From a virus, in IMG/VR virus record IMGVR_UViG_2509601008_000001: a stretch of DNA of 33,868 nucleotides; one strand, 5' to 3'. The translations under genes were made by a program, and so were the position numbers. Position 1 is the stretch's first letter, and each line of letters begins with the position of its first letter. Positions 12,062-29,176 of this stretch are shown piece by piece. The notes below the pieces were generated by a model. The model saw nothing but the letters and a program-made list of their open reading frames with translations, did not search any database and was not told the origin of the DNA.

Positions 12062-12150
12062 GGCTACCGCTCTATATTATTGCAATATCTTTCTTTCCGC
12101 TTATGTTAATTTGGAATTTTCTTGAGTTATATTATGCCAGGGGGCACTGA
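12058..12150 (+). CDS. 30-aa hydrophobic microprotein (single TM)
   Basis: Hand translation MRLPLYIIAISFFPLMLIWNFLELYYARGH. ATGA-coupled to the portal and abuts the next ATG. Confidence 0.5.
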   Translation: MRLPLYIIAISFFPLMLIWNFLELYYARGH

Positions 12151-12444
12151 ATGTACGTAATACCGGATACAGACTACACGATTAATGCTTCTGCTAAAAC
12201 AATAACGCTAGCGGCAGCATACGCTACTCTAAGCGCAGGACAGATTACAAAAATTAAGGATATCACTACAGAAGAGATCCTCTATGATTCGGAAAGGGTC
12301 TCGTTTACGGGGCCACAGATCTCGGTTGCTACGGGAGTAATCACCTACACGCAAGGAAACAAAGTGGCCAATACCGATAAGCTGCGCATAGTAGTTGATG
12401 CTAATTACTCAGATATATATCACCTCGATGGAGGGAGCGCATAA
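12151..12444 (+). CDS. Virion beta-rich accessory protein ending in DGGSA
   Basis: YTINASAKTITL...I.DIT..EILY resembles the N-terminal module of phage fibre proteins. Confidence 0.65.
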   Translation: MYVIPDTDYTINASAKTITLAAAYATLSAGQITKIKDITTEEILYDSERVSFTGPQISVATGVITYTQGNKVANTDKLRIVVDANYSDIYHLDGGSA

Positions 12445-13802
12445 TGCCACGTAATCAATTAATACAGATCAGACGGGACACGACAGCAAACTGGACGAAC
12501 ACTAATCCAATCCCTGCAGAGGGGGAGCTCTGCCTGGACACAAATACCGGATACCTGAAAGTAGGGGACGGGTCATCTAATTATGTAGATCTACCTATCT
12601 TCACCCATGGCGCATCTATCACTGAGGCAATAGGCATAGAGTGGGATACCAGCAGCACAAGCCCAACGCTCAAGAGGATCGACATCAATGGTAACGAGCG
12701 CTCTACTGTAGACGCTACATATTTCGATAATCACTCTATCTGGGGAAATATAAAAAGATGCACTATAAACCCAGCTATCGGACTCCCTGTCTACGGCACT
12801 AATGCAAGAGGTGACGGGCTAGATCTAACAGGCGCATCAGGAAACGTGATGGTTAAGATCCCCAAATTCTATGTGAAGTTCAGCACGGACGGAACTTATC
12901 ATAGATGGTGGATTAGTCCTGTTGCCCTCGCTGGTTTCGAGTTACATCCAGCTTTTCTTCAGAGGGGCGGTACAGAAGCAGAGCTTTTTGTTTCGGCATA
13001 TGAAGCGGCAGGGTTCCTGGATGGGGCGACATTCAAACTCACGTCCGCTACAGGACTGCAACCAGTGACGGGTGATGTCTCCTACCCCAATTTGCCGAAC
13101 TCGGGCCGTCTGTACATTATGGACGCCGGCACCTATGCAAATAACATAGGAACTGGCTACGGCATCATGAATATATGGACATGGTCTGCAATCCGGCTAT
13201 TGGTGCTCACTGAACTGGGTACGCTCAACTCACAGGCCGCGTTAGGCAGGGGAATCGTAGATCTTGCATTGGGTACGGGATACGCGGGTCTGCTCACGGG
13301 TGCATTGTCAGCCGATACCAATGTTGCGACAAACGGTTCTGGAATGGGAACGGGAACAAACGGAGCAACTCCCGTTGTATGGCGCGGCATAGAGAATATT
13401 TGGGGCAATACTCTAAGTTTCGTGATCGGAGTAACCTTTTTTGATACCGTTCACTGGGTGCTGAAACCAGACGGGACAGGAGTAGTGGCTGCACCGCTTA
13501 CCACTGGGAACTACGTAGAATCAGCATCAGTGCCGCCCAATACCACGAGTGGATATATCTCAAGAGTGTTCGTGGACAGCGCGCTGAAATATATGATGCT
13601 GGGGTCTGCTGTCGCGGGATCCTCAAGCACCTATGCATGTGATCTGTACACCGTACGCGAAACATCCGCAACAGGTACACACGGACAATGCAGCGGTGCG
13701 TGGGGTGCAGGAGATGGAGCCGGAATAAATTATCAACGTAGCGCGATATACGGCCATTTATCCAGACAAGTAGGGGCAAGGATCGAATTTTTGAAGAGGT
13801 GA
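12444..13802 (+). CDS. Adhesin/fibre: Mtd_N-like N-terminus plus C-type-lectin/FGE-like C-terminal domain
   Basis: IQIRRDTTANWT..NPIPAEGELCLDT.TG.LKVGDG (Mtd_N-like); VMVKIPKFY, HPAF, WRGIENIWGN, and terminal GAW..G..AG...GARI. Confidence 0.8.
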   Translation: MPRNQLIQIRRDTTANWTNTNPIPAEGELCLDTNTGYLKVGDGSSNYVDLPIFTHGASITEAIGIEWDTSSTSPTLKRIDINGNERSTVDATYFDNHSIWGNIKRCTINPAIGLPVYGTNARGDGLDLTGASGNVMVKIPKFYVKFSTDGTYHRWWISPVALAGFELHPAFLQRGGTEAELFVSAYEAAGFLDGATFKLTSATGLQPVTGDVSYPNLPNSGRLYIMDAGTYANNIGTGYGIMNIWTWSAIRLLVLTELGTLNSQAALGRGIVDLALGTGYAGLLTGALSADTNVATNGSGMGTGTNGATPVVWRGIENIWGNTLSFVIGVTFFDTVHWVLKPDGTGVVAAPLTTGNYVESASVPPNTTSGYISRVFVDSALKYMMLGSAVAGSSSTYACDLYTVRETSATGTHGQCSGAWGAGDGAGINYQRSAIYGHLSRQVGARIEFLKR

Positions 13803-13806
13803 TAGA

Positions 13807-14175
13807 ATGGTCGAATCAACAATACAACCAGCTGAAATTTATATAGACCGAATCGAGCACGGTAGAGCTAGACTTCTGTGTAGGTGGAATATCACTACAT
13901 CTACCAGGGACGAACAGACTATCTATTCCTATGAGGAGGTGGTGCTCTGGTGGACGTTCCCGTATATAGACACGGACGGGGTAACAGTCCTGGACAACTA
14001 CGCAGCAATAGAGAAGTTCATGCTCGCGAACAAAGCAGATATCCTCAACTACGCAAGAGGCACACAGACAACCCTCATAGGAAAGGACAAGGGCAAGGGC
14101 AAGCCGCCAGCTGCTGAAAAGGACAAGGGCAAAGGCAAAGAAGAAAAGGAATTCACAATCCGGGGGAACAAATAA
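13807..14175 (+). CDS. Small fibre-associated protein (possible chaperone) with Lys/Gly tail
   Basis: GAGGTGA RBS. Duplicated KDKGKGK. Function inferred from position only. Confidence 0.55.
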   Translation: MVESTIQPAEIYIDRIEHGRARLLCRWNITTSTRDEQTIYSYEEVVLWWTFPYIDTDGVTVLDNYAAIEKFMLANKADILNYARGTQTTLIGKDKGKGKPPAAEKDKGKGKEEKEFTIRGNK

Positions 14176-14190
14176 TCCCCTTCTCTTACT

Positions 14191-15048
14191 ATGAACCTCC
14201 TGCAAACCCGGCCAATTCTCACAATAGAGAGAAACCTGACAGATCTGATAGACCGCACGTTCCGAAAAGCGGCAAGGGTCGCAACGCTTGATTACAAAAA
14301 TGAGCTACCTAATCGGGTTAGGCAGGGGTTCAGGTCACGTACATTTGCATTGCAGCTAGATAAGCTGATTACAGAGCTTATCCTGCAATCTTTTTCTTAT
14401 GCGGACAAGCAGGCTAAGCAGCTGACAGCAGCAGCGCCAGAGCTCAATCCTTCTTACGTGCTCACAGAAGAGGCAGTAAGACTATCTGGGGAACTATCAA
14501 AAGAATGTGCCGAAAGTGTGGTTAGGATGCTCGTAGAGGATGCTATATATTATGAGTCGCCAAGAGCATTAGCTAACCGAATTACAGACCTTTGGGGCGG
14601 TGAAAAGTATAGGGCTGAACGCTTTGCTCGTACGTTCACAGCAGACGTAGCTACAGCCTCTACAGTAAGCCGCTACAGGCAGCTAGGCATTAGATATATG
14701 GAGTTCAACGCAGAGGTAGACGACAAGACTACTGCTCAATGTCGCTGCTTAGACGGCACTATATTCGACCTTGAGAAAGGATCAGTCGATGCATACAGAC
14801 CTCCTTTACATATGCACTGCCGGAGCGGTCTAATTCCAATCACTGAGGATGAGTACGATAAGAGCAGGGAGTTTGAGAACAGGGATTTCAGTACTACTCT
14901 TGATGATCCTAAAGAGGTAGACAGAGCATTCAAGCAGATCGGTAAGTTCAACGATAACTATAGGGTCTCTAAGCTGATTATTGATAAGGATCTAGCAGCT
15001 AGGTACATGTTTGAAAAAGGGTTCTCAGTGAGTATAGAGACCCCTTAA
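14191..15048 (+). CDS. MuF / SPP1 gp7-like minor head protein
   Basis: RAERFART...D.KT...C..LDG.IF......PPLH.HCRS. Confidence 0.92.
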   Translation: MNLLQTRPILTIERNLTDLIDRTFRKAARVATLDYKNELPNRVRQGFRSRTFALQLDKLITELILQSFSYADKQAKQLTAAAPELNPSYVLTEEAVRLSGELSKECAESVVRMLVEDAIYYESPRALANRITDLWGGEKYRAERFARTFTADVATASTVSRYRQLGIRYMEFNAEVDDKTTAQCRCLDGTIFDLEKGSVDAYRPPLHMHCRSGLIPITEDEYDKSREFENRDFSTTLDDPKEVDRAFKQIGKFNDNYRVSKLIIDKDLAARYMFEKGFSVSIETP

Positions 15049-15263
15049 TTCTTGTTTTTCTCTGCGTCTATGCATGTTTGCATAATTCTTATCATATCTC
15101 CGTACCTGATATAATAATACTTGCCTTCGTGTCTCTTGTATCCGTTTTTATCAAGTTCCTCAATAACGGATATAGGCAGTGATGCTATATGATGTCTATC
15201 AATTATTCCTTTTTTTCTAGCTACTTCATCTGACGGTAGTTCCGGTATATCTGTATTAGTCAT
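15045..15263 (-). CDS. Small antisense-oriented hypothetical protein (moron-like)
   Basis: 72-aa AT-rich ORF filling the MuF-protease gap. ATG lies about 28 nt from the TATA element read on the minus strand. Confidence 0.6.
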   Translation of the reverse strand: MTNTDIPELPSDEVARKKGIIDRHHIASLPISVIEELDKNGYKRHEGKYYYIRYGDMIRIMQTCIDAEKNKN

Positions 15264-15278
15264 TGTCTATATTATAAT

Positions 15279-15307
15279 GTGTACACTAAATTATATATAG
15301 TATATAC
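15279..15307. promoter_or_regulatory. Late promoter element, copy 2 of the 29-bp repeat, probably bidirectional
   Basis: Identical to 10558-10586. Divergent ATGs at 15327 (+) and 15263 (-). Confidence 0.8.
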
Positions 15308-15326
15308 CTACATTATACTGTATATA

Positions 15327-16286
15327 ATGATATTAGAGGGCATTGCTTTTCCATTAGACACACTAAACAAGAACGGCTGGGGCATCCCCTCCTCTGATGC
15401 CGACAATGCTATCTCTTCTCTCAAAAACGCTGTAGTCCGGGTCTGTTCTCGCAATGATCCCCACGGCTGTGATATCTCCGAAGATCCTAAAGCAGAAATA
15501 GGTAGAGTGCTAGATGCCTGGAAGGACGGGTCTAATGTATATACCAAAGTAGAGATTACAGATTCGGTAGCAGCAGCCAAAGTTAAAGAAGGAACCTGGC
15601 AGAAAAAGTGGAGCGTATACGGCAAAGCAGGCGCAATAAACGAGGGATGGACTAACGGAGCGTCACTAAAATCTATTACGCTTGTGACAAATCCAGCATG
15701 GGATCAATCCTCATTTGATGTGGCTGCCTCTGCTGAAGATCCCAAATTACTATTTTTCAATGATTTTTCAATAACAGCTTCGGTAGGTAATACCATGGAC
15801 GACAACAACATAACACCACCCGGCGGGGCAATACCTGCCGAATTTGAGCAGCGTATGGCTGACTCACAGAAACAGATCGATACTCTCATTGTAGAGAGGA
15901 AGGCACTTGCTGAGCAGGTAGATGCTCTCACTAAAGAGAGAGATGAACTAAAAACTGTAGCAGCGTCACTGAAAGAAGAGACAGGCAAAATGGTCTCAAT
16001 GGATGAAGTCAAGCAGATGATCGCTGCAGCAAAAGCAGAAGATCGGGAACAGCAGGCTCACGAAGCCGCTCTTGTGAAACTCACAGCAGCAAGAGCAGAG
16101 CTTGGGCTTGAGACCAAAGCAGAGGCATACTCTGAACTTAGCGCATCAGCAATTGAAGAGGCCGCAGCAGAATGGGGTCAGGTACAGATATCAGCATCAG
16201 CAAATCAGATCAAATATCCTTCTACTGTCCCCGCAAACAGTGCCAGGCTTAAGGTATTCGATCCATTCACAGGGGGATACGTATAA
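15327..16286 (+). CDS. Prohead protease-like domain fused to a coiled-coil scaffold
   Basis: MILEGIAFPLDTLNKNGWGI...IGRVLDAW...SITLVTNPAW, then a long Ala/Glu helical region. The ORF-track start at 15279 lies inside the promoter. Confidence 0.75.
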   Translation: MILEGIAFPLDTLNKNGWGIPSSDADNAISSLKNAVVRVCSRNDPHGCDISEDPKAEIGRVLDAWKDGSNVYTKVEITDSVAAAKVKEGTWQKKWSVYGKAGAINEGWTNGASLKSITLVTNPAWDQSSFDVAASAEDPKLLFFNDFSITASVGNTMDDNNITPPGGAIPAEFEQRMADSQKQIDTLIVERKALAEQVDALTKERDELKTVAASLKEETGKMVSMDEVKQMIAAAKAEDREQQAHEAALVKLTAARAELGLETKAEAYSELSASAIEEAAAEWGQVQISASANQIKYPSTVPANSARLKVFDPFTGGYV

Positions 16287-16750
16287 TGGTACAGTTAGGA
16301 TTCAGGAAACCAACTAACAAGTGGAGCCAGGGCGGTGCTCTGGGTGTCGAATATTTCAAAGTTGGCGCAAACGCTACCGCAGCAAAAATGCTTCCGGGCA
16401 TAGCGGTAATCAAAGATGCTAATGATTTCAGTGTCAAGGAATCAGGCAGCTTAGGCAGCACAATTGGGGTGCTCGGATACGATGAGACTCCAGCACAGTA
16501 CAGGCCAACTACCAGCTCTACAGCATACGCATTAGGCGACCACGTAGCAGTGCACAGAGGCGCAGGACGCAGGCAGAAGATGTGGCTCACTACCTCACAG
16601 ACTATAGTGATAGGTCAGCCTCTGATGGTGACCACAGACGGCTATCTCACAGCAGCCACAGCAGGAACTCATGACGTATACTGTGATGCAGCCGAAAGTG
16701 TGACAACCACAAGTGCTGCTGCTGCAATCTGGGTAATTACAAGGAAGTGA
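16286..16750 (+). CDS. Capsid decoration/cement protein
   Basis: Small beta-rich protein between the scaffold and MCP. Confidence 0.7.
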   Translation: MVQLGFRKPTNKWSQGGALGVEYFKVGANATAAKMLPGIAVIKDANDFSVKESGSLGSTIGVLGYDETPAQYRPTTSSTAYALGDHVAVHRGAGRRQKMWLTTSQTIVIGQPLMVTTDGYLTAATAGTHDVYCDAAESVTTTSAAAAIWVITRK

Positions 16751-16757
16751 TTGAAAC

Positions 16758-17678
16758 ATGGTCAACGCATTAGCAAATCTTAAAAATCAGTGGGATAAAG
16801 ACATCGCTCCTACTCTGTATGCTCAGGATATCAGCAAGCAGCTCATGCCAATAAACCCACAGCTCTCTAATCAGGGTCTGGGAGTTCTTAGCATTGACTC
16901 TCTAAAATACGTAGCAAGAGGCAGCGCAAGCATTAACTACGACATTCAGCAGGACATAGAGGATACTGTTGACATTGCACTGGCAAACCTGAAAATCCCT
17001 GTCCAGCAGGACGACACCAAGATCAGGCGCAGAGATTGGGAAGCATACGTAAAGCAGGGTATCCCTATCAGCTCAGATCTTGCTCAGGACATGGCTGCAA
17101 ATATCGCTGTACAGCGCACTACTCTTGTAGTGGATGGCTGGAAACCAGACGGGACAAATTACGATATCAAAGGCATGTACCAGGTAGCAAACAACACTGT
17201 TGCAGGAGCCGATTTTGATACTTTCGGCAACGCATACAAAACAGTAGCAGCCTGCCTTAAGGAGCTCAAGACTGACAAGATTTACAGTCCTGGGTATAAC
17301 CTTGTGCTGGCTGGTCTGAACTACGCTGAACTTATGGGGTCTATCTCCACAAACGGAGTGTCAGAGGCTCAGATGGTCATAGACCTGCTCAACAGAGATG
17401 CACCTCCAGGCACACAGCCAGGTAGGATCTTTGAGGGAACTGATCTTGCGGCAGGTACGGGAATGGTTGCACCTATCGCAGCTCAGGCAAACCTCAGATA
17501 TTTTGACCTGATCGAGACCCAGGAGCCTATTAACCATCTTTGGTTTGAGGATGGCAACGAGGTATCTGGAGACATCAAAGCTAGGCAGATAGGCGCAATG
17601 GTTCCCAGGTTCAAGCACCTAGTGGGCGGTAAGGATAATTGTGTCTGTACAATCAGCTCTGGTCTGGACAGCTCTTAA
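16758..17678 (+). CDS. Major capsid protein (HK97 fold, encapsulin/linocin-like)
   Basis: 306 aa. Position, IP.QQDD..I.RRDW, IKGMY, Y.LVL. Confidence 0.85.
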   Translation: MVNALANLKNQWDKDIAPTLYAQDISKQLMPINPQLSNQGLGVLSIDSLKYVARGSASINYDIQQDIEDTVDIALANLKIPVQQDDTKIRRRDWEAYVKQGIPISSDLAQDMAANIAVQRTTLVVDGWKPDGTNYDIKGMYQVANNTVAGADFDTFGNAYKTVAACLKELKTDKIYSPGYNLVLAGLNYAELMGSISTNGVSEAQMVIDLLNRDAPPGTQPGRIFEGTDLAAGTGMVAPIAAQANLRYFDLIETQEPINHLWFEDGNEVSGDIKARQIGAMVPRFKHLVGGKDNCVCTISSGLDSS

Positions 17679-17693
17679 GCGGAGTGATATCAG

Positions 17694-17933
17694 ATGAGGC
17701 TACGGTGTACGATTGGATCTATGCATATCCTCAGTCGGAGGACTGTTTACAACCGGGGAGACGAGTTTGAAATGGAGGCAACGAAAGCTGCCTCTCTTAT
17801 CTCCTCTGGCTATGCTGTCACGGTTGAAGAGATTGCAGTAGAGCCAGTCAAAGAACCAGAAGCAGAGCCCGTTGAAGGACATATTGAAACCACAAAACCA
17901 ACTCCAAAAAGATCACGTTCTCATAAGAGGTAA
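17694..17933 (+). CDS. Small head-associated protein
   Basis: GGAGTGA RBS. Y.RGDEFE......LI..GYA motif with a basic tail, typical after MCP. Confidence 0.65.
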   Translation: MRLRCTIGSMHILSRRTVYNRGDEFEMEATKAASLISSGYAVTVEEIAVEPVKEPEAEPVEGHIETTKPTPKRSRSHKR

Positions 17934-17938
17934 GCAGT

Positions 17939-18337
17939 ATGGCAATGTGTACTGTCGCTGATGTTAAGGCTATAGTGTCACCAAAAACGGTTACTGATGC
18001 TGAAATCACTAGCATCATTGCTCTAGTTTCTGGGGATATAGCAGCCGACACTGGAGCTAGTACTAGCTCTACAGACAGTACACTAGTCAGGGCGTGTATT
18101 CATTACTCTGCTGCAATCACGTTGCAGAGAATGAAATACACAGGCGAACTGGCTTCTCAGAGGCAGATAGGCGACAGCATGAGGTCTAATAATGTAGATG
18201 CTCAAATCGCTTATCACAACGAGAAGGCCCAGTACTTCATAAACAAATACGTTTCTGCAAATTATGATGAGTACACGATCATATCGGGCAGGATCGGGAT
18301 AGGCGAAGTAGACAACGAGGTGCTCTATGAATACTGA
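17939..18337 (+). CDS. Head-tail adaptor
   Basis: MCTVADVKA start motif and position. Confidence 0.7.
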   Translation: MAMCTVADVKAIVSPKTVTDAEITSIIALVSGDIAADTGASTSSTDSTLVRACIHYSAAITLQRMKYTGELASQRQIGDSMRSNNVDAQIAYHNEKAQYFINKYVSANYDEYTIISGRIGIGEVDNEVLYEY

Positions 18338-18677
18338 TATCCTAATCCACACCTGCTCAATCCTCCATACCGTACCTGTCTCCCAAAACAAATATGGAGA
18401 AGAGGTAAGAGGCGGTCTACCTGTCTCCTCTGCATGCCGATTCTACACATCTCGCAGGATACCAGGGAGGATGTCCTCGGTTGGTATCGGAGAGTTTCAT
18501 ATTGATACACCTAAACTTGCCCTTCCAGCTACTGCTACTGTTACAGAGAACGATATTATCACAAGCTCTGTTATGTCTTTTACAGGGCCGTACAGGGTCA
18601 GCCACGTCAATCCGCTTGCTGACTTGTACTCTAGTACTCTTGACCACATAGAGTGTGAGTTGGAGGCGATTGAATGA
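18327..18677 (+). CDS. Head closure protein
   Basis: NKYGEE, beta-rich pattern, DHIECEL, and position. Confidence 0.7.
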   Translation: MNTDILIHTCSILHTVPVSQNKYGEEVRGGLPVSSACRFYTSRRIPGRMSSVGIGEFHIDTPKLALPATATVTENDIITSSVMSFTGPYRVSHVNPLADLYSSTLDHIECELEAIE

Positions 18678-18913
18678 ACCAGCCCGTAACTCATGCAGAG
18701 TGCCAGGCACGCATGGAGATACTCGAACAGAAGATGCATACCTGCATGAAGGAGGACAAAACCGACTTCAAGGACACCATTACTGATGTGGAGGAATGGG
18801 TCGGGAAACTAGAGTCTAAAATGGACTACATGATATACGGCCTGCTGTTCCTAGCATTAGAAGGCTTCGTAGGGCTTATAATCACAATATTCACTCTGTC
18901 TGGGGGGATCTAA
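18674..18913 (+). CDS. Coiled-coil protein with C-terminal TM (holin/XhlA-like candidate)
   Basis: Heptads followed by YMIYGLLFLALEGFVGLIITIFTL. Confidence 0.6.
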   Translation: MNQPVTHAECQARMEILEQKMHTCMKEDKTDFKDTITDVEEWVGKLESKMDYMIYGLLFLALEGFVGLIITIFTLSGGI

Positions 18914-19347
18914 TGCCTCTACGTGTAGAAGTCCAGGGCATCGAGGAGCTCAGAGCCAAGATTAGAAACATGGGCGAAGAGCTAGCTAATGTGCTAGAGG
19001 ATGCAGCCAACAAGGGGGCCATGATCGTAGTCAAAGAGGCACAGCTCAACAGTGCTAAGGGGGGCGGCTTTCCTAGCAGGATTACAGGTAATCTATTCAG
19101 AAGCATTCCTGCGGTCAGTCCGGTCACTGTATCCAAATCTCGCAATAGAGTAGAGGTAGCAGTGGGCTCCTCTGCTGAATACGCAAGGCGGCTAGAGCTC
19201 GGTTTCACTGGCACTGACAGCCTAGGTAGACATTATCATCAATCTCCCAGGCCGTACATTAGGCCTGCTCTTGTTGCTAATAGAAATAACGTAGAGCAGG
19301 AGATGGCAAAACGTTTCCGGCAGGTTATAGGGGGCTATACTAGATGA
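18913..19347 (+). CDS. HK97 gp10-like tail completion protein
   Basis: V.GIEEL...TGNLFRSI...VG....YA..LE.G...PRPYIRPAL. Confidence 0.9.
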   Translation: MPLRVEVQGIEELRAKIRNMGEELANVLEDAANKGAMIVVKEAQLNSAKGGGFPSRITGNLFRSIPAVSPVTVSKSRNRVEVAVGSSAEYARRLELGFTGTDSLGRHYHQSPRPYIRPALVANRNNVEQEMAKRFRQVIGGYTR

Positions 19348-19775
19348 CCACTATACACGGTGCTATCAGATCATTGCTGCTAGGTTCTACAGCAGTAACA
19401 GACCTAGTGAGCACTCGGATCTATCCTGTGCAGATCCCTTTCGGCACGACCTATCCGGCAATCTCAATACACGAGATCAGCGGCTTAGAGGATTATGTAG
19501 TGGGTTACGAGGCACATAGGTATCAAGTATCCATATTCTCTGAATCATTCACTATAGCTCAGGACATTAAGCAGGCTATTAAGCTGTGTTTGAACAGATA
19601 TTCAGGCACAGTAGACGGACACAACATTAAAAGCCTGTCCTTCCTGAGCAGCCTGGAACTCTATGAGGACGAATCAAGAATGTACCATCTCCCCTTAGAT
19701 TTCCAGATAGTACACTATAACGATTCCGGGGACAACCAGCAGCCAACGCTAAACCTAGACGGTGGCAGCGCATAA
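19344..19775 (+). CDS. Tail terminator (DUF3168-like) with C-terminal DGGSA extension
   Basis: LV..RIYP...P...YPAI...I.G...RYQVSIF, plus extra tail NDSGDNQQPTLNLDGGSA. Confidence 0.85.
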   Translation: MTTIHGAIRSLLLGSTAVTDLVSTRIYPVQIPFGTTYPAISIHEISGLEDYVVGYEAHRYQVSIFSESFTIAQDIKQAIKLCLNRYSGTVDGHNIKSLSFLSSLELYEDESRMYHLPLDFQIVHYNDSGDNQQPTLNLDGGSA

Positions 19776-19812
19776 CGATAACTGAATAATAAACTAAACA
19801 GAGGTCTTGAAA

Positions 19813-20610
19813 ATGGTAACACAAACATCAGTACAGAAGGCTACAGCCATACGTTTTGGCTCTGGCAAGCTTGAGGTAGGCGCAACAGTAGGTACTCTTG
19901 CAGATGTGGGAGCAATCAGAAACGCTACGTTTGCTAGGGAATTTGAGAAAGTAGAAATAATGAGCGACAATGCAGACAGAATAGCTGCAGGCATCAGAGA
20001 TCATTTCGCTTTCATTGAATTTGATATGCTAGAGATCGACATGTCTAAGCTCAGTGTAATCATGGGCGGCCTGGACACCTACGCTACTGTTAACGGTACT
20101 CCTGTCGCCGTAGTCGATGAGCCTATAACCCTCAACGGCACGGACGCAGTAAGACTGGCAAACAAAGAGGGAGACGGTACAGAGGCAGCAAGTATAGTAG
20201 TCACCAATGCCGCAGCAGTAGCAGCGGTTAGAAACACCGACTACGTCATTTCAGTAGATGCGAGCGGCTACACGACCATAGCAAGAGTGGCAGCCTCTGC
20301 AAAGCTTACGGATGGCGGCATTGCTCTTATAGACTATTCATATACACCAAACGCATCAGTGACTCTCAAGAGTGGTGGTAACACTACTATAGCTGACAAG
20401 GTCGTAAGGATTACGAACACCAACGCAGCAGGCAAGACCCTTCAGATCACTGCCTACAAAGCTTCAATTGACGAGGGATGGAGCTACGACTTCCCGGCAG
20501 ATGACGCTTATGAAGTCGGCATGGTTCACATCAAGATGAAGGCAAGGATAGACACTACCAGGACAGTGGGAGACCAGCTCTTCGCTATTGTAGATGAACA
20601 AGGAGTCTGA
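19813..20610 (+). CDS. Major tail tube protein with inserted beta domain
   Basis: GSGKLEVG...DVGAI...F.RE, position, GAGGT RBS. TTG at 19807 is an alternative start. Confidence 0.85.
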   Translation: MVTQTSVQKATAIRFGSGKLEVGATVGTLADVGAIRNATFAREFEKVEIMSDNADRIAAGIRDHFAFIEFDMLEIDMSKLSVIMGGLDTYATVNGTPVAVVDEPITLNGTDAVRLANKEGDGTEAASIVVTNAAAVAAVRNTDYVISVDASGYTTIARVAASAKLTDGGIALIDYSYTPNASVTLKSGGNTTIADKVVRITNTNAAGKTLQITAYKASIDEGWSYDFPADDAYEVGMVHIKMKARIDTTRTVGDQLFAIVDEQGV

Positions 20611-20615
20611 TCTGC

Positions 20616-20945
20616 ATGGATTCTGTGAAAACATTTGGCGGTCTGCTTCCTGAGAAGCGCATAGCAATAATAGCTAATAGAGAGATAGACGTGAGCAGGA
20701 TCCCCTCACGTTTTACTCTTGAGATGATGAATGCTACAAGAGGAGGAGTAGATTACTCAGTCGTTGTGAAAATAATTGCAGACATCTGCTCTAAGAATGC
20801 TCCTGAAATTACTCCTGATTTCCTTCTCGATAATCTGGGGATAGATGAGATCAATGAATTAGTAGAGTACATGATGGAGCCAGTCACCCAGAAAGCCAAA
20901 GCTAAGATGGCAGAGGCAGCAGGTGCAGACCCAAAAAACTCGTAA
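20616..20945 (+). CDS. Tail assembly chaperone (G-like)
   Basis: Located between the tube and TMP; ends in a slippery site. Confidence 0.8.
   Translation: MDSVKTFGGLLPEKRIAIIANREIDVSRIPSRFTLEMMNATRGGVDYSVVVKIIADICSKNAPEITPDFLLDNLGIDEINELVEYMMEPVTQKAKAKMAEAAGADPKNS
20933..20939 (+). promoter_or_regulatory. -1 ribosomal frameshift slippery heptamer A AAA AAC
   Basis: CCA AAA AAC TCG TAA. The -1 frame is open (KLVTFAEIYASVGSMYGW...) into 20978-21229. Confidence 0.8.
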
Positions 20946-21229
20946 CCTTTGCGGAAATATACGCATCGGTTGGCTCTATGTATGGTTGGGCAACTCCCGA
21001 TTATTTGCTCAACCATATGAGCCTCGTTGAAATCCTCGATTATTACGAAAATGGGATCAAATTCGAGGAGTCAAAGGCTCAGATCCTGGTAGGTACTCTT
21101 GCGAAAGCAATGCACAGCGGCTCTGATGATCCCAAGAAACCAGCTAAGCGGATATACAGAGAAGAGCCAGAGCAGACCCCTGACCGTAAAGCCCTGTATG
21201 AACAATTCGGAGACCTGATAAAAACATGA
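20936..21229 (+). CDS. Tail assembly chaperone frameshift extension (GT-like)
   Basis: -1 frame continuation; ATGA-coupled to TMP. Confidence 0.75.
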   Translation, partial: KLVTFAEIYASVGSMYGWATPDYLLNHMSLVEILDYYENGIKFEESKAQILVGTLAKAMHSGSDDPKKPAKRIYREEPEQTPDRKALYEQFGDLIKT

Positions 21230-24200
21230 GCGGTGTACTCGAAACCCTGTCAGTAAACGTTGTTGGTGAAATATCAGACGTAACCAACGCATTCAATCAG
21301 CTAGATCAGCGAGTCGCAGGGTTTGGGAGATCTATGCAGACAATGGGCTCCCAGCTGCAGGGCATGGGTACGTCTATGTCCCTTGCAGTCACCGCTCCGT
21401 TAATGGCTATCGGGGGGCTGGGTCTCAAGACTGCTGTTGATTTTGATGACGCAATGAGGCAAGTGCAGGCCGTCACTGGATCAACGGGCGACTCTCTTGA
21501 TATCCTCCGAGATGCAGCGCTTAGGATGGGCGCTGATACAGCATTCTCTAGCTCACAAGCAGCAGAGGCAATGCTACAGCTTGGGCAAGCTGGATTTTCT
21601 ACTGATGAAATATTAAGCTCTACTGAGCAAGTGCTATCCCTAGCAAGTGCCGGAGCTCTTGATCTTGGTACAGCAGCAGGCATTACGGCTAATGCTCTTA
21701 TGGGTTTTGGCATGGAAGCAGACCAGACGCAGCGAGTAGTAGACCTGCTGGCTATAGGCGCATCTATTTCTACAACTGATGTACAAGGGCTAGGGCTTGC
21801 GCTTTCTTATGTTGCTCCTGTCGCTAATGCTATGGGTATGAGCATTGAAGAGACTACCTCCCTTATAGCAGGTCTGTCTAATGCTGGTATTGAGGGAGAG
21901 AGAGCAGGCACAGCTCTTAGAGGGGCTATAGAGAGGCTGGCCGTACCCACTGATGAAGCAGCCGGGGTACTTCACGGTTACGGGATTGAGCTAGATATGG
22001 TCAACCCGGCAACAACCAGCTTCACTGAGATTCTGGAGGTACTGGCAAAAGCAGGTATGTCAGCCGCTGACGTAATGGCGGTATTTGGGGTCAACTCTGG
22101 GCCCGGAGTACTAGCACTGTTAGGGCAGGGTACTCCTGCTATAGAGGCTCAGACGGCAGCCCTTACAGAATCAGCTGGCGCAGCCAAAACAATGGCTGAC
22201 ACAATGGAGGGCGGTGCAGGTGGAGCAATCAGACAGCTACAGGGATCTATAGAAACATTACAGATCACAATAGGGGATCTTATAGCAGATGCCCTGCTGC
22301 CCTGGATAGACAGAGCTACAGAGCTATTCAATCAGCTCTCTTCTCTTCCTACTCCTTTATTACAAAACATCATAATGATAGCAGGGCTAGCGGCTGCAAT
22401 TGGCCCTGCGCTTATTGCTTTTGGTACTCTGATTAAGTCGACAGGTACTATAATCACATTGTTCTCAGGTCTGCCTATCCTATTCGGTCCGGTGGGTCTG
22501 GCTCTTGCAGGTATAGCAACAGCAGCAGCCATTGTATACACGAATTGGGATAGAGTAGGCCCCTGGTTAGTTCAACAGTTTGAGAACCTAAGAGGGGTAG
22601 CTCTTGCCCTTCTGGAGAGAGTACAATCGCTAGTTAGAGACGGGTTTGAGTATATCTCTAATTGGTGGAGTGCTAACGGCAGAGCGGTACTAGATGCACT
22701 GATAGCAGCATTCCAGAGAACAGTAGCGTTTATTACTCCTGTCTACGAGGCTGTACGAAATCTTGTACTCAATGCACTCACTCTAATCAGCGCATGGTGG
22801 ACGCAGAACGGCAGCGGAGTAATGGAGACGCTGAGAGCTGCGTTCGATAGAATACAGGCGGCTGCTATCCCTCTAATTACTACTATTAGGGATCTTGTAG
22901 AACGAGCCCTCACGGGAATTAGCACATGGTGGACTGGAAACGGTAACGGGGTAATGAATGCGCTTAATGCTGCTTTTACGTGGATCATAGATACTGGCTC
23001 ACAGCTTATTGCAGTAGTGCTTGATCTCGCTAACAGAGGGCTTATAGCTATCAGCAATTGGTGGAGTGCTAACGGTAATACCGTAATGACGGCTCTTAAT
23101 ACTGCGTTTACATGGCTGATTACAACGGGTTCAGACCTCATAGACACAGTATGGGATCTAGCAACCAGAGGGTTCACTGCTATTAGCAATTGGTGGAGTG
23201 CTAACGGAGAGTCTACGCTTAACACACTGTGGCAAAAAATCAATGATCTATATGATGCAATCGAGCCACTTATCCCTATCGTAGTCGAATTTGTGCGGGA
23301 TGGACTGGAGAAGATTAGTGCATGGTGGACAGCGAACGGGCAGGACACACTCGATGCAATACAGAAGCTCACAGATGCAGCAGAGTGGCTGTTCGACAAT
23401 GTTCTCATTCCTGCAATTAATACACTTCAGATCATACTGCCTCCCATAATAGACAGTATCAAATCCTGGTGGGATACTTTAGGGGATGCTTTAGAGTTCA
23501 TTGTAGACCTCATCAATGGAGACTGGGCGGACGCTTGGGAAAACATACAGGCATCCGTATCAGAAGCGTATGAGGACATCAAAAACATATGGGGAACCGG
23601 GGCACTTGCAGAGGTAATAGGGGTAGTATGGGATGCAGTCGGCCTAGACACTTCTACTGCATGGGACGATATAGAGACCGATATTACTGATACATGGGAC
23701 GATATCAAAGAGGCTCTGACCGACAAGGACGGTACATTTAGGACATCAGTGGTTACATTCTGGAAATTGATTAGAGGGGATATCAAAACCGAAGCAGACG
23801 GGATAGGGACAGACGCTAACACCTCCTTCTCTGGGCTATCTACTACAGTCTCAACCCACATGAGCGGCATATCTGCCTCTGTCTCTACAGCATGGAACTC
23901 TATCCGGCAGTCCATATCAGAGAGATTGACAGCCATCCGGGCTGATACAAGCACAGCATGGACGAACATTCAAACCTCGGTTTCCACGTCCCTAAACTCA
24001 ATCAGAGTAACAGTAAGCAATGCCTGGAACACAATGCGCACAGACATTACTACTGCATTGAATTCAATAAGAACAACAGTAGGCACTGCCTGGAGCGCAA
24101 TACAAACAAATGTCTCTACTGCACTCAATAGCATCAGGACAACGTCTACAACTATCTGGAATAATATACAAACCTCAATTACAACCTCACTCAATTCAAT

Positions 24201-25245
24201 CCGAACCACATCAACAACTATCTGGAATAGTATACAGACCTCTGTCTCTAACTCACTGAACAATATAAGAACTACTGCAAGCAACATATGGAACTCCATA
24301 CTGTCTACTATTACAGCTGCACTCAACAACATTAGAACAACGTCTGTCAACGCTTGGAACTCAATTCAGAGCTCCGTAACAGCATCACTGAATAATATTA
24401 GAGCCACTGCTCAGAATATATGGAACTCTATTCACAGTACAATCACCTCAGTACTGAATGGCATCAGAGCAACCTCACAGAGTATATGGGCATCTATACA
24501 GTCTGCTATCTCAAGTGCAATGAACAACATCCGGGCAACTATCGCCAGTGCTTGGAGCAGCATAGCAAGCGGTGTTAGTTCCGGCTGGGCTTCTATCAGA
24601 TCTCGGATACAGGCAGAGATCAATACAATTATATCTGCTATATCCAATGCAGGGAGCAGGTTCTATAGTGCTGCTGCTAGCTGGGTACAGAGCATGGTAG
24701 ACGGACTCACTTCTAGAATATCCTCACTGAGGTCAGCGGTGAACTCGGTACTGTCGTTAGTGTCGACTGGCAACTCTGCCAATATATCAACCTCCTCTAC
24801 TTCAAATATCAGGACAGGCGGCACTTCATCGGGTGGCACAGGGTCGGCTAGAATCACCTCCCTCCCTTCCTACACCGGCGGCAGAACAGCACTATCTGGT
24901 ACGCCTACCACAGTAGGATACAATCCCCTTGAAAAACACGACACTGGCGGCATAGCGGGGTACACTGGCTGGCATTGGATGGAGAAGAACGAATTAGCCA
25001 TCCCCCAAGCGACTAATTGGGATGCTATCCTTATCAATCCTATCAGCAATGCATTAGCTAAAGCAGCTAGCATTACAGCAGGCAGAGGACTAGGCTCTGG
25101 ACCAGGATCAGGTAACGTCACCTATGAGGGCGACACAATATATATCACTGCTAACATGTCTAACGAGTATGGGTTTGATGAGATGATGGATGACATCAAC
25201 AGACGGACAACTAGGGACAGGTTTAGGAGAGGGATCAAATCATGA
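21226..25245 (+). CDS. Tape measure protein (TP901 family), 1339 aa
   Basis: FD.AM..V.A...A..MG..T.FS..QAAEAM..L..AG core; WW..NG repeats; 11-aa Trp-anchored repeats at about 23900-24600. Confidence 0.97.
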   Translation: MSGVLETLSVNVVGEISDVTNAFNQLDQRVAGFGRSMQTMGSQLQGMGTSMSLAVTAPLMAIGGLGLKTAVDFDDAMRQVQAVTGSTGDSLDILRDAALRMGADTAFSSSQAAEAMLQLGQAGFSTDEILSSTEQVLSLASAGALDLGTAAGITANALMGFGMEADQTQRVVDLLAIGASISTTDVQGLGLALSYVAPVANAMGMSIEETTSLIAGLSNAGIEGERAGTALRGAIERLAVPTDEAAGVLHGYGIELDMVNPATTSFTEILEVLAKAGMSAADVMAVFGVNSGPGVLALLGQGTPAIEAQTAALTESAGAAKTMADTMEGGAGGAIRQLQGSIETLQITIGDLIADALLPWIDRATELFNQLSSLPTPLLQNIIMIAGLAAAIGPALIAFGTLIKSTGTIITLFSGLPILFGPVGLALAGIATAAAIVYTNWDRVGPWLVQQFENLRGVALALLERVQSLVRDGFEYISNWWSANGRAVLDALIAAFQRTVAFITPVYEAVRNLVLNALTLISAWWTQNGSGVMETLRAAFDRIQAAAIPLITTIRDLVERALTGISTWWTGNGNGVMNALNAAFTWIIDTGSQLIAVVLDLANRGLIAISNWWSANGNTVMTALNTAFTWLITTGSDLIDTVWDLATRGFTAISNWWSANGESTLNTLWQKINDLYDAIEPLIPIVVEFVRDGLEKISAWWTANGQDTLDAIQKLTDAAEWLFDNVLIPAINTLQIILPPIIDSIKSWWDTLGDALEFIVDLINGDWADAWENIQASVSEAYEDIKNIWGTGALAEVIGVVWDAVGLDTSTAWDDIETDITDTWDDIKEALTDKDGTFRTSVVTFWKLIRGDIKTEADGIGTDANTSFSGLSTTVSTHMSGISASVSTAWNSIRQSISERLTAIRADTSTAWTNIQTSVSTSLNSIRVTVSNAWNTMRTDITTALNSIRTTVGTAWSAIQTNVSTALNSIRTTSTTIWNNIQTSITTSLNSIRTTSTTIWNSIQTSVSNSLNNIRTTASNIWNSILSTITAALNNIRTTSVNAWNSIQSSVTASLNNIRATAQNIWNSIHSTITSVLNGIRATSQSIWASIQSAISSAMNNIRATIASAWSSIASGVSSGWASIRSRIQAEINTIISAISNAGSRFYSAAASWVQSMVDGLTSRISSLRSAVNSVLSLVSTGNSANISTSSTSNIRTGGTSSGGTGSARITSLPSYTGGRTALSGTPTTVGYNPLEKHDTGGIAGYTGWHWMEKNELAIPQATNWDAILINPISNALAKAASITAGRGLGSGPGSGNVTYEGDTIYITANMSNEYGFDEMMDDINRRTTRDRFRRGIKS

Positions 25246-25646
25246 GTACAGGCGACTATCTTGACGTAGTGTTTGATTCTCTAAGGATCTCTGCTCTTTC
25301 TGAGCCTGAAATAGTTGACGATTTCTCTTACAACGAAACCAGACTAGCATCAGGAGAGACGTTTATACAGACCTCTAGTACTCCGAGGTTCTCAAAAACA
25401 TATAGGTGTCTAACAGAGGATGATGTAGAGCGGGATGCAATCAGACTCAAGCGGGGCAAATTCGCAGATCTTGTAATTGATGGCATAACCTATAGCGGCT
25501 GCTGTATCAAGCCCCCCATTAGGTTCAAGTATACCCGTGTTCCTGGGCGGTGGGAATACGATATCACTTTTGTACAACATACTGGCACTCTACCCGTACC
25601 TGTAGCGGATGAACTCCCAGCCCTAATAGATGGAGGCAGCGCATGA
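25242..25646 (+). CDS. Distal tail (Dit-like) protein with C-terminal DGGSA extension
   Basis: Follows TMP. WEYDITFVQ, then LPVPVADELPALIDGGSA. Confidence 0.65.
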   Translation: MSTGDYLDVVFDSLRISALSEPEIVDDFSYNETRLASGETFIQTSSTPRFSKTYRCLTEDDVERDAIRLKRGKFADLVIDGITYSGCCIKPPIRFKYTRVPGRWEYDITFVQHTGTLPVPVADELPALIDGGSA

Positions 25647-25765
25647 TCTCAAATATAGAAACAGGACAGTTTATAATCTCAATAACTAAAATAGATGTCA
25701 ATGGTGTACCTGTTGAGAAAACAACGGTATACCCAGACGGTAAAGAAGTAACAGAGGTTTTATAA
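25643..25765 (+). CDS. 40-aa hypothetical protein
   Basis: Hand translation MISNIETGQFIISITKIDVNGVPVEKTTVYPDGKEVTEVL. Coupled by ATGA and TAATG. Confidence 0.55.
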   Translation: MISNIETGQFIISITKIDVNGVPVEKTTVYPDGKEVTEVL

Positions 25766-26136
25766 TGGCAATACTAACTAACGCAGGCAAAGTGGCAGCT
25801 GCAAAGCTGCTCAATGGTGTGGATTCTGTACCAGCATTCACCTATATCGCAATCGGTAGCGGCAGCACAGCAGAGGCAGCAACACAGACGCAGCTAGTGA
25901 CCGAGATCACAGCAAACGGAGGAGCAAGAGCGGCGGCTACCTGTTCCTATGTGGCATCGAATACAGCCAAATGGGAGAAGGAGTTCGCCTTCACAGGCGA
26001 CGTAACTATAAGAGAGTTTGGGGTATTCTCTGCCTCATCTGGAGGAACTATGCTTGTACGTCACCTGTTAGCAGCAGGCAAGGCTTATGAGAACGGGGAA
26101 AAGGCTCTTGTATCAATTAGTGCTGTAATATCCTAA
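25765..26136 (+). CDS. Tail/baseplate fibre-attachment protein
   Basis: LTNAGK...FTYIAIGSG......T.L..E...IREFGVF resembles tail-collar/fibre N-terminal domains. Confidence 0.75.
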   Translation: MAILTNAGKVAAAKLLNGVDSVPAFTYIAIGSGSTAEAATQTQLVTEITANGGARAAATCSYVASNTAKWEKEFAFTGDVTIREFGVFSASSGGTMLVRHLLAAGKAYENGEKALVSISAVIS

Positions 26137-26149
26137 TCGGAGTTATAAC

Positions 26150-29166: not shown

Positions 29167-29176
29167 GGACACAACA

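What the first reader, a model, noticed from the sequence alone, without database searches (positions are those of the whole stretch)
12424..25646. Three unrelated virion proteins end in the same C-terminal tag, [L/I]DGGSA-stop
Seen in sequence: 12151-12444 ends HLDGGSA, the tail terminator 19344-19775 ends NLDGGSA, and the Dit-like 25242-25646 ends LIDGGSA. Codons differ synonymously (GAT/GAC, GGA/GGT, GGG/GGC, TAA/TGA), which points to selection on the peptide. In the last two proteins the tag sits on an added linker beyond the core fold. The first tagged gene is TAATG-coupled to the Mtd_N adhesin, and I recall DGG-x-A motifs next to Mtd_N-like domains in other phage proteins. Inference: this is a modular docking peptide that recruits one trimeric adhesin to three virion positions (head or portal area, neck, tail tip). 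Caveat: in two copies GGAGG could also act as the RBS of the next gene, but the 19761 copy (GGTGGC) is a poor RBS and is far from the next start.
Basis: partly seen in the sequence, partly recalled or inferred. Interest (0 to 1): 0.8.

Follow-up and report, generated by a model that had tools for sequence, protein, structure and literature searches.

The report
Shared C-terminal tag docks viral adhesin
A virus integrated in a methanogen genome has put the same six-residue tail (L/I-D-G-G-S-A) on three unrelated particle proteins; comparison with many other viruses suggests that this tail plugs into the N-terminal cap of its single adhesin fibre, but binding has not been measured.

Summary
Three proteins of a Methanomethylovorans provirus end in [L/I]DGGSA-stop: a 97-aa protein, the tail terminator and a Dit-type distal tail protein. 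These are the only DGGSA in six frames of the 2.7-Mb genome.

The peptide is under selection, not an RBS. Relatives at 56-95% identity keep it through synonymous codon changes, while the linkers before it drift. Terminator copies are never SD-like.

In the terminator and Dit-like proteins the tag sits on a 18-20-aa tail that all distant homologs lack. Related proviruses without the tails also lack the 97-aa/Mtd_N-fibre cassette, and their genomes have no Mtd_N domain.

In IMG/VR, 22 of 54 genes directly upstream of distinct Mtd_N genes end in Phi-[DN]-G-G-x-x, against 16 of 2,277 other ORFs. In the reverse test, 22 of 42 DGGSA-stop ORFs are followed by Mtd_N. Streptococcal Tal/HylP and, loosely, BPP-1 Bbp9/Mtd show the same pairing.

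Best reading (about 0.65): a portable docking peptide that recruits the Mtd_N fibre to head, neck and tail tip. Binding is untested because the complex predictor was closed. The tag also precedes some heads that are not Mtd_N.

This scan noted the tag-then-Mtd_N pairing before on other DNA. New here are the archaeal host and tags grafted onto core ring proteins. I found no paper describing the motif.

The parts
12151..12444 (+). 97-aa stand-alone anchor-domain protein. It has a beta-sandwich core (residues 1-85) and a disordered tail ending in HLDGGSA.
   Evidence: Translation. AF2 gives pLDDT 87 overall and below 50 for residues 93-97. In other viruses the same domain is the N-terminal (once the C-terminal) module of long fibre proteins and carries no tag. 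Five close homologs and L045 all end in [DN]GGSA.
12424..12441 (+). Tag copy 1: L-D-G-G-S-A (CTC GAT GGA GGG AGC GCA). The stop overlaps the ATG of the fibre gene (TAATG).
   Evidence: Synonymous variation in homologs is shown.
12444..13802 (+). 452-aa fibre/adhesin: Mtd_N cap (residues 7-45) plus a modular receptor-binding body (58-452). It is the presumed receptor of the tags and the only Mtd_N in the genome.
   Evidence: Pfam Mtd_N scores 65.8 bits against a cut-off of 26.3. There is a single genome-wide match. The body recurs behind Mtd_N, BppU_N, tail-collar-fibre and collagen N-termini. It is 56% identical to the L045 fibre, which lies next to a reverse transcriptase.
13807..14175 (+). 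122-aa third gene of the cassette; function unknown, Lys-rich C-terminus.
   Evidence: No Pfam or PHROG hit. A small gene is syntenic in L008 and L009. It is absent together with the cassette in the G028 relative.
19344..19775 (+). Tail terminator (143 aa): core residues 1-124 plus a 19-aa extension, YNDSGDNQQPTLNLDGGSA.
   Evidence: PF11367 at 1.5e-13 and PHROG tail terminator. Relatives in G028, G031, G013, Blf4 and P0014-18 end at the core. P0012 and P0013 keep the tail and tag.
19755..19772 (+). Tag copy 2: L-D-G-G-S-A (CTA GAC GGT GGC AGC GCA). It is not SD-like, and the next start is about 37 nt away with its own AGAGG.
   Evidence: L022 and L026 read GGC GGC.
25242..25646 (+). Dit/tube-initiator-type distal tail protein (134 aa): core residues 7-112 plus a disordered tail (113-134) ending in LIDGGSA.
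   Evidence: The gene directly follows the tape measure gene. AF2 model. Foldseek matches include the E217, Milano and T1 tail tips and SPP1 Dit, with probability 1.0 and E from 2.6e-4 upward. Of the family, 23 of 27 members lack the tail.
25626..25643 (+). Tag copy 3: I-D-G-G-S-A (ATA GAT GGA GGC AGC GCA).
   Evidence: In L022 the same peptide is encoded by GAC GGT GGC with no overlapping start.
25643..25765 (+). Conserved ~40-aa ORF between the Dit-like gene and the gp80-like gene. Here its ATG overlaps the stop of the tagged gene (ATGA).
   Evidence: Conserved peptide ...NKDG[VI]P[VI]E[KR]T..YPDG.EVTE.L in L022 and L025, where the start is displaced.

Best explanation
[L/I]DGGSA-COOH is a short, portable docking peptide (a plug). 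Its most likely receptor (socket) is the trimeric N-terminal Mtd_N cap of the single adhesin fibre, encoded at 12444-13802. The 97-aa protein is a detached fibre-anchor domain whose disordered C-terminal tail carries the plug for the fibre encoded next to it. The same plug has been grafted, through 18-20-residue flexible linkers, onto two conserved ring proteins: the tail terminator at the neck and the Dit-type protein at the tail tip. One lectin-type adhesin can therefore be displayed at up to three sites on the virion.

Shown here: the peptide is under selection as a peptide; it sits on added, disordered tails; tails and fibre cassette are present or absent together among related proviruses; and across viruses this C-terminal motif is strongly linked to a downstream Mtd_N gene.

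Inferred: that the tag contacts Mtd_N physically; the stoichiometry (three tags per trimer is the natural guess, as for trimeric Tal with HylP); and the virion site of the 97-aa protein.
For: Selection acts on the peptide. All homologs of the three proteins at 56-98% identity keep [DN]GGSA, while codons vary synonymously (GAT/GAC, GGA/GGT/GGG/GGC, AGC/AGT, GCA/GCC) and the linkers diverge with indels.

The tails are add-ons. Distant terminators and 23 of 27 Dit-like relatives stop at the core. AF2 models both tested tails as disordered.

Phyletic pattern. The G028 provirus has the same gene order but portal is followed directly by MuF, with no cassette. Its terminator ends IIHMR* and its Dit-like protein ends GRHTA*. 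All 20 Dit-like loci in 17 other genomes of the class are untagged. None of the 18 genomes carrying untagged terminator or Dit-like homologs has Mtd_N, whereas G000 has exactly one.

Forward test. Of 54 ORFs directly upstream of distinct Mtd_N genes, 22 end in [LIVMFY][DNE][GAPC]Gxx*, against 16 of 2,277 other ORFs (Fisher p = 1e-28). The upstream proteins range from 87 to 1,139 aa. Most of the 16 others also precede Mtd_N-like heads.

Reverse test. Of 42 DGGSA-TAA matches that close an ORF, 22 are followed by Mtd_N within 600 nt, against 1 of 35 chance matches.

Named cases. S. pyogenes prophage Javan489 Tal ends QIILDGGN* and is TAATG-coupled to HylP. BPP-1 Bbp9 ends DLGGIA* directly upstream of mtd.

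Mtd_N as an attachment module. The fibre body recurs behind other known anchor modules. [quoted passage not shown]
Against: There is no physical or structural evidence of contact.

The tag also closes genes followed by heads that are not Mtd_N ('MAIDFPNSP...' and 'MA.YP...V.F...'). Profile comparison does not join these to Mtd_N, so the socket may be broader than Mtd_N or different from it.

About half of Mtd_N genes have no tagged neighbour. L036 has the same fibre family but no tag within 10 kb on either side.

The within-family co-gain of cassette and tails may be a single evolutionary event (n = 1).

The related contigs L022 and L023 carry both grafted tags but end before the place where the cassette would lie, so co-presence cannot be checked there.

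Hexameric rings and a trimeric fibre pose an unresolved symmetry and steric question.
Confidence: 0.65

Rival explanations
1. The tag is a docking peptide, but for another shared partner. Candidates are the 122-aa cassette protein (13807-14175), the gp80-like 123-aa protein (25765-26136) or an assembly chaperone, rather than the Mtd_N cap.
For: The 122-aa gene is gained and lost together with the cassette. The gp80-like gene and the downstream tail-tip genes are also absent from the untagged G028 relative. The tag precedes non-Mtd_N heads in other viruses.
Against: Across IMG/VR the only recurrent neighbour of the tag is an N-terminal head domain on the next gene, and in about half the cases that head is Mtd_N. 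No homolog of the 122-aa protein accompanies those pairs as far as I looked. The terminator tag is not next to any of these candidates.
Confidence: 0.13
2. The motif is an intrinsic C-terminal capping or oligomerisation element of each tagged protein and needs no partner. Its adjacency to Mtd_N genes would then reflect only that fibre segments are encoded in tandem.
For: Many tagged proteins are themselves fibre segments, including collagen-like ones and proteins that carry an Mtd_N head and end in a tag (L056, L060, L084, L107, L134).
Against: In this window the tag sits on disordered linkers added to globular ring proteins whose untagged homologs are complete without it. The tails appear only in the lineage that also carries the fibre cassette.
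Confidence: 0.08
3. The motif is a GG-type processing or conjugation signal, with cleavage after Gly-Gly and possibly covalent ligation, as in ubiquitin-like or SAMP modifiers or double-glycine leaders.
For: The motif is always G-G followed by one or two variable residues at the extreme C-terminus. Archaea possess SAMP/E1 systems (general knowledge).
Against: No beta-grasp fold is present: the 97-aa protein is a beta-sandwich with no significant PDB match, and the other two have terminator and tube folds. No protease, E1 or JAMM gene was found among the provirus ORFs scanned. The motif occurs alike in bacterial phages whose hosts lack such systems.
Confidence: 0.04
4. The motif is a by-product of a Shine-Dalgarno sequence (GGAGG) for the downstream gene.
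For: In copies 1 and 3, GGAGG lies 9 and 6 nt before an ATG (the Mtd_N gene, and the 40-aa ORF at 25643).
Against: Terminator copies read GGT GGC or GGC GGC with no nearby start. The L022 Dit-like copy reads GGT GGC and the small ORF start is displaced. D, S and A are conserved through synonymous changes. The variant tags [DNE][PA]GAS contain no SD.
Confidence: 0.02

Closest known systems
Bordetella phage BPP-1 Mtd (Pfam Mtd_N, PF18454) and its tail fibre Bbp9
   Same: Both have an N-terminal Mtd_N cap on a trimeric lectin-type adhesin that is thought to attach to another virion protein (PMC10743442). The gene directly upstream of mtd ends ...ADLGGIA*. A 56%-identical homolog of this window's fibre lies in a DGR cassette (L045).
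   Different: BPP-1 is a bacterial podophage with one attachment partner. Its C-terminal motif is a looser variant (D-L-G-G-x-A). No partner motif has been described. This window has no DGR and has three tagged partners.
Streptococcal prophage hyaluronidase HylP (PDB 2C3F, 2DP5, 2YVV, 6X3M) with the Tal-type 'Prophage_tail' protein
   Same: These are the only solved structures with this cap. In Javan489 the 682-aa Tal (PF06605) ends ...QIILDGGN* and overlaps hylP by TAATG, as at 12444 here.
   Different: There is one tag, on the natural trimeric tip protein next to the fibre gene. All the structures are of HylP alone, so the joint has never been seen. The host is a bacterium.
Modular receptor-binding-protein anchors of tailed phages (BppU_N on Dit in lactococcal phages, tail-collar fibre N-termini, T4 gp10-like and CBA120 TSP anchor domains; general knowledge)
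   Same: Interchangeable N-terminal modules fix a swappable distal head to the particle. The same head fold as this fibre body occurs behind BppU_N and Phage_tail_fib N-termini.
   Different: Those joints are domain-to-domain contacts specific to one site. Here the virion-side partner would be a six-residue C-terminal peptide that can be moved onto unrelated proteins.
Earlier notes of this scan on 'DGG tail then Mtd_N head' (giant viruses and phages)
   Same: The same motif and the same gene-order rule. I re-derived the rule independently on IMG/VR loci.
   Different: Those cases are tandem fibre cassettes. Here the host is an archaeon, and two of the three tags are on core ring proteins far from any Mtd_N gene, with an untagged sister provirus available for comparison.

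Membership tests
Mtd_N-capped fibre (Pfam PF18454) | HMM match above the gathering score, located at the extreme N-terminus | tested here: met
   65.8 bits against a cut-off of 26.3, residues 7-45 of 452. It is the only match in the genome.
Mtd_N-capped fibre (Pfam PF18454) | Trimeric beta-prism cap | not tested
Mtd_N-capped fibre (Pfam PF18454) | Followed by a distal receptor-binding body | tested here: met
   Atlas structural neighbours (TM 0.83-0.95) are phage fibre heads behind Mtd_N, BppU_N, Phage_tail_fib or collagen. PHROG 5302, tail protein.
Phi-[DN]-G-G-x-x-COOH plug / Mtd_N socket pairing (defined by this scan, not published) | Motif within the last 6-7 residues, with a hydrophobic residue before D/N | tested here: met
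   The three copies read HLDGGSA, NLDGGSA and LIDGGSA.
Phi-[DN]-G-G-x-x-COOH plug / Mtd_N socket pairing (defined by this scan, not published) | The next gene begins with an Mtd_N head | tested here: inconclusive
   Met for copy 1 (TAATG overlap). Not met for copies 2 and 3, which are followed by the major tail protein and by a 40-aa ORF plus the gp80-like gene. The single Mtd_N gene lies 7-13 kb away.
Phi-[DN]-G-G-x-x-COOH plug / Mtd_N socket pairing (defined by this scan, not published) | Peptide conserved independently of the nucleotide sequence | tested here: met
Phi-[DN]-G-G-x-x-COOH plug / Mtd_N socket pairing (defined by this scan, not published) | Physical contact between the tag and the cap | not testable with these tools
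No solved complex exists.
Tail terminator (Tail_completion_gp17, PF11367) | HMM match, and a gene position between the gp10-like gene and the major tail gene | tested here: met
   51.4 bits against a cut-off of 24.5. PHROG 347 and 78. Synteny.
Dit / tube-initiator distal tail protein | Tail-tube-type fold, and a gene directly after the tape measure gene | tested here: met
   Foldseek probability 1.0 to E217, Milano and T1 tail tips and to SPP1 Dit. The gene overlaps the end of the tape measure gene. There is no Pfam or PHROG sequence match.
Ubiquitin-like / SAMP modifier | Beta-grasp fold ending in GG, with E1 or JAMM enzymes | tested here: not met
   The folds are a beta-sandwich, a terminator fold and a tube fold. 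No such enzymes were found in the provirus ORFs scanned.
DGR variable protein | VR/TR repeat pair and a reverse transcriptase nearby | tested here: not met
   No direct repeats in 12000-16000 and no RT among the window ORFs scanned. The L045 homolog does have an adjacent RT.

The most novel reading that the evidence does not exclude
A six-residue C-terminal peptide (Phi-D-G-G-x-x-COOH) is a universal, transplantable plug for capped viral fibres, used by bacterial phages, archaeal viruses and (according to earlier notes of this scan) giant viruses. This provirus shows evolution using it like a natural affinity tag: adding linker plus tag to a terminator and to a Dit ring was enough to decorate the neck and tail tip with an adhesin that was acquired as a cassette in the head module.
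Probability: 0.5. Interest if true: 0.85.

Novelty: new variant of a known kind. Interest (0 to 1): 0.72.

Why it matters
How receptor-binding fibres are fixed to virions, and how they are exchanged between viruses, is a central question for host range. For Mtd and HylP-type fibres the joint has never been seen. If a short C-terminal peptide is the virion-side half of that joint, three things follow. It explains why these fibres move so freely between unrelated viruses. It gives an annotation rule for finding which protein carries which fibre. And it predicts adhesins at unexpected places on the particle (capsid or portal, and neck) as well as at the tail tip. The window offers a clean natural comparison: sister proviruses with and without the cassette and tails, in a methanogen virus, a group in which almost nothing is known about adsorption.

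Tried and rejected
RBS by-product: rejected as a general cause.

Cultured-phage database: megablast of the structural region and tblastn of the 97-aa and Dit-like proteins found nothing. The terminator found only Methanoculleus virus Blf4/L4768 at 25% identity, which is untagged.

PDB by sequence with two Mtd_N profiles: only isolated HylP structures.

Literature: searches for the motif strings, for Mtd_N, and for HylP or Mtd attachment found no description of the tag.

Foldseek of the 97-aa model: no match at E <= 1e-3. Only weak phage rows appeared (Chi tail tip, CBA120 TSP4 N-terminus, DT57C neck) and I do not rely on them.

PHROGs on the whole Dit-like family: no family.

Are the other heads that follow tags remote Mtd_N relatives? 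hhalign gave probability 39% over 18 columns in one case and nothing in the other, so this is not established.

A second tagged terminator: L099, a PF12691 terminator ending EINGGIN*. It has no linker and the motif is not conserved in Javan489, so it remains open.

Frameshift fusion of the 97-aa protein with the fibre: considered, but it cannot explain the other two copies and was not pursued.

Host ORF ending NLGGSA* (C1:161948, minus strand): not examined.


Full report
Observation.

DGGSA occurs three times in six frames of the window and three times in the whole 2.71-Mb genome, always directly before a stop. The pentapeptide is not intrinsically frequent. What is improbable is that three of 47 genes share their last five residues, which by composition has a chance of about 2e-8. 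The window holds no weaker variant of the tag and only one Mtd_N head.

Setting.

The window is G000:C1:1194285-1228152, in a genome that encodes McrA. That McrA is 95-98% identical to McrA of Methanomethylovorans genomes. The element is therefore an integrated tailed virus of a methanogen of the Methanosarcinaceae.

The gene order is as follows:
- RecT, YopX and a large terminase containing an intein;
- portal;
- a 30-aa membrane peptide;
- the 97-aa protein, the 452-aa Mtd_N fibre and a 122-aa protein;
- MuF, scaffold, decoration protein and an HK97-fold capsid protein;
- connectors, a gp10-like protein, the terminator and the major tail protein;
- chaperones and a 1339-aa tape measure protein;
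- the 134-aa protein, a 40-aa ORF and a gp80-like 123-aa protein;
- a DUF2341 protein, a 236-aa protein and a beta-helix spike;
- the integrase.

What the tagged proteins are.

The product of 19344-19775 is a tail terminator (PF11367, PHROG 347 and 78).

The product of 25242-25646 has no sequence family. It folds confidently over residues 7-112 into the tail-tube/Dit fold. Foldseek gives probability 1.0 to the E217, Milano and T1 tail tips and to SPP1 Dit. The gene follows the tape measure gene directly. "Dit-like" is therefore correct.

The 97-aa protein is a small beta-sandwich with pLDDT above 90 for residues 1-85. It has no significant PDB neighbour. Its relatives are informative. In IMG/VR the same ~85-residue module is usually the N-terminal domain of long fibre-like proteins of 226 to 1886 aa, and once it is C-terminal. 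It is therefore a fibre-anchor domain that stands alone in this provirus. The gene lies in the head module here, and also in L011 and L045 (directly after a Mu-gpT-type capsid gene) and in L008 (after MuF). This suggests, but does not show, a capsid- or portal-proximal site.

Peptide or nucleotides?

All five close homologs of the 97-aa protein (56-95% identity) end in [D/N]GGSA. All three homologs of the Dit-like protein (62-94%) end in IDGGSA. Both close terminator homologs (71-98%) end in DGGSA. In every family the residues just before the tag diverge and carry indels.

The codons vary synonymously at D, at both G positions, at S and at A. Terminator copies read GGT GGC or GGC GGC and lie 20-37 nt from the next start, which has its own AGAGG. 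The L022 Dit-like copy reads GGT GGC. The conserved 40-aa ORF that overlaps the stop codon in this window starts further downstream in L022 and L025.

An SD role may add some constraint in the 97-aa family, where the second Gly codon is always GGG. It cannot explain the motif as a whole.

The tails are grafts.

Terminators of related archaeal proviruses (G028, G031 twice, G013), of Methanoculleus virus Blf4 and of five metagenomic relatives end at or just after the core (...IIHMR*). They lack the 19-residue tail. A full-database HMMER search for the Dit-like protein found 32 relatives. In an alignment of 27 family members, 23 end at the core, and only the query and its three close relatives carry the ~20-residue tail. 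AF2 models both tested tails as unstructured and of low confidence.

Phyletic co-occurrence.

The G028 provirus shares the gene order, with 30-57% protein identity. There, portal is followed directly by the small membrane peptide and MuF, so the cassette is missing. Its terminator and Dit-like proteins also lack tails.

Among 392 genomes of the class, 17 others have Dit-like homologs at 20 loci. Every match stops at model position ~113-114.

None of the 18 genomes with untagged terminator or Dit-like homologs has an Mtd_N domain. G000 has exactly one. Cassette and both grafted tags are thus present together or absent together. This may still reflect a single evolutionary event.

Generality of the link to Mtd_N.

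Forward test. From 80 Mtd_N loci in IMG/VR (58 distinct sequences), 22 of the 54 ORFs ending directly upstream of the Mtd_N gene end in [LIVMFY][DNE][GAPC]Gxx*. Only 16 of 2,277 other ORFs do so (Fisher p = 1e-28). The tagged upstream proteins range from 87 to 1,139 aa. Their tags include VDGGSA, LDGGSA, IDGGSA, LDGGVS, IDGGNG, LDGGGA, VDGGHA, IDGGGP, INGGTP, LDGGPA, YDGGNS, INGGNA and a clade with [IL][DNE][PA]GAS. The 16 "other" hits are all co-oriented with the Mtd_N gene, and most are themselves followed by Mtd_N-like heads. L107 has three such genes in a row.

Reverse test. A scan for the DNA pattern of DGGSA-TAA alone gave 42 matches that close an ORF of at least 60 aa. Of these, 22 are followed within 600 nt by Mtd_N. 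Only 1 of 35 chance matches is, and that one is a real tagged ORF cut by the locus edge.

Named examples. In S. pyogenes prophage Javan489 the Tal-type tip protein (PF06605) ends ...QIILDGGN* and overlaps hylP by TAATG. In BPP-1 the putative tail fibre Bbp9 ends ...ADLGGIA* directly upstream of mtd.

Limits of the rule.

Some tagged genes are followed by other N-terminal heads ("MAIDFPNSP...", "MA.YP...V.F..."). Among them are gpV-type hub proteins of 141 aa. Profile comparison does not connect these heads to Mtd_N.

About half of Mtd_N genes have no tagged neighbour. L036 carries the same fibre family but no tag within 10 kb on either side.

G061, a complete 102-kb virus with a homologous stand-alone anchor protein ending IDGGTP* before its Mtd_N fibre, has only that one tag.

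Mechanism.

The most economical reading is that Phi-D-G-G-x-x-COOH is the virion-side half of a plug-and-socket joint, and that its other half is the N-terminal cap of a trimeric fibre. In this provirus the only capped fibre is the product of 12444-13802.

Its body is a modular receptor-binding head that other phages combine with BppU_N, tail-collar-fibre or collagen N-termini. A 56%-identical homolog is the target of a diversity-generating retroelement (DGR), as Mtd is. No DGR exists in this window.

[quoted passage not shown] Solved structures contain the cap only in isolated HylP. I found no paper that names the motif.

Binding itself could not be tested, because the complex predictor was closed. 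Contact, stoichiometry (three tags per trimer; two fibres per hexameric ring?) and the site of the 97-aa anchor are all inferences.

Rivals.

I considered and ranked lower four alternatives: another shared partner; an intrinsic capping element; a GG-type processing or conjugation signal; and an RBS by-product. The evidence for and against each is given in the rival explanations.

Novelty and verdict.

Modular fibre anchors are known. A transplantable six-residue C-terminal plug is not described in the papers searched. Earlier notes of this scan reported the same tag-then-Mtd_N pairing in giant viruses and phages, and I re-derived the rule independently.

This window adds three things. It is an archaeal example. 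Its tags are grafted through flexible linkers onto two core ring proteins that are not next to any fibre gene. And sister proviruses lacking tails, cassette and Mtd_N together provide a direct comparison.

I class it as a new variant of a known kind, with interest 0.72 and confidence 0.65 in the docking-peptide reading.

Noticed in passing
window 7734-10262: The large terminase (842 aa) is interrupted by an intein. Pfam Intein_splicing covers residues 180-522, between Terminase_6N and Terminase_6C. Another note of this scan already covers it.
   Followed up: no
window 25643-25765: Unannotated ~40-aa ORF between the Dit-like and gp80-like genes. Its peptide is conserved in L022 and L025 (...NKDG[VI]P[VI]E[KR]T..YPDG.EVTE.L), so it is probably a real small tail-tip gene. 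Gene callers missed it on those contigs.
   Followed up: partly
window 12058-12150: 30-aa hydrophobic peptide gene (MRLPLYIIAISFFPLMLIWNF...) between portal and the 97-aa gene. An analogous membrane peptide sits between portal and MuF in the cassette-less G028 provirus, so it is not part of the inserted cassette.
   Followed up: partly
L045:2843-6119: Related cassette directly after a Mu-gpT-type capsid gene: a 96-aa anchor protein ending VDGGSA*, a fibre 56% identical to this window's, a 101-aa gene and a reverse transcriptase. This is a DGR that diversifies the fibre. The two fibres differ most in the last ~50 residues.
   Followed up: partly
L134:626-826 (minus strand) and L141: A 66-aa protein that is only an Mtd_N cap followed by ...LPDEIDGGSA*, that is, socket plus plug with nothing between. 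It may be an adaptor or extension piece.
   Followed up: no
L107:5516-8369: Three consecutive genes end in VDGGEF*, IDGGSF* and IDGGSY*. Each is followed by a gene with an Mtd_N-like 'IRIKRR...' head, which suggests daisy-chained fibre segments.
   Followed up: partly
L099:1507-1956: A streptococcal HylP-type prophage has a PF12691 tail terminator ending ...KLEINGGIN*. It could be a second tagged terminator or chance. There is no linker, and the motif is not conserved in Javan489.
   Followed up: partly
L154:11642-12067, L155:7106-7528, L182: gpV/VgrG-type OB-fold hub proteins (PF04717, ~141 aa) of other viruses carry a ~50-residue tail ending [FV]IDGGSA*. This is another example of the tag on a core baseplate protein.
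   Followed up: partly
window 25765-30877, compared with G028 (L116): The tail-tip module here (gp80-like 123 aa, the N-terminal half of the DUF2341 protein, a 236-aa protein and a 566-aa NosD/pectate-lyase-type beta-helix spike) has no counterpart in the G028 relative. The tail tip was therefore also remodelled in the tagged lineage.
   Followed up: no
G000:C1:161948 (minus strand): A 231-aa host ORF ends ...GGLNLGGSA*, which resembles the BPP-1 Bbp9 variant DLGGIA*. It is probably chance.
   Followed up: no
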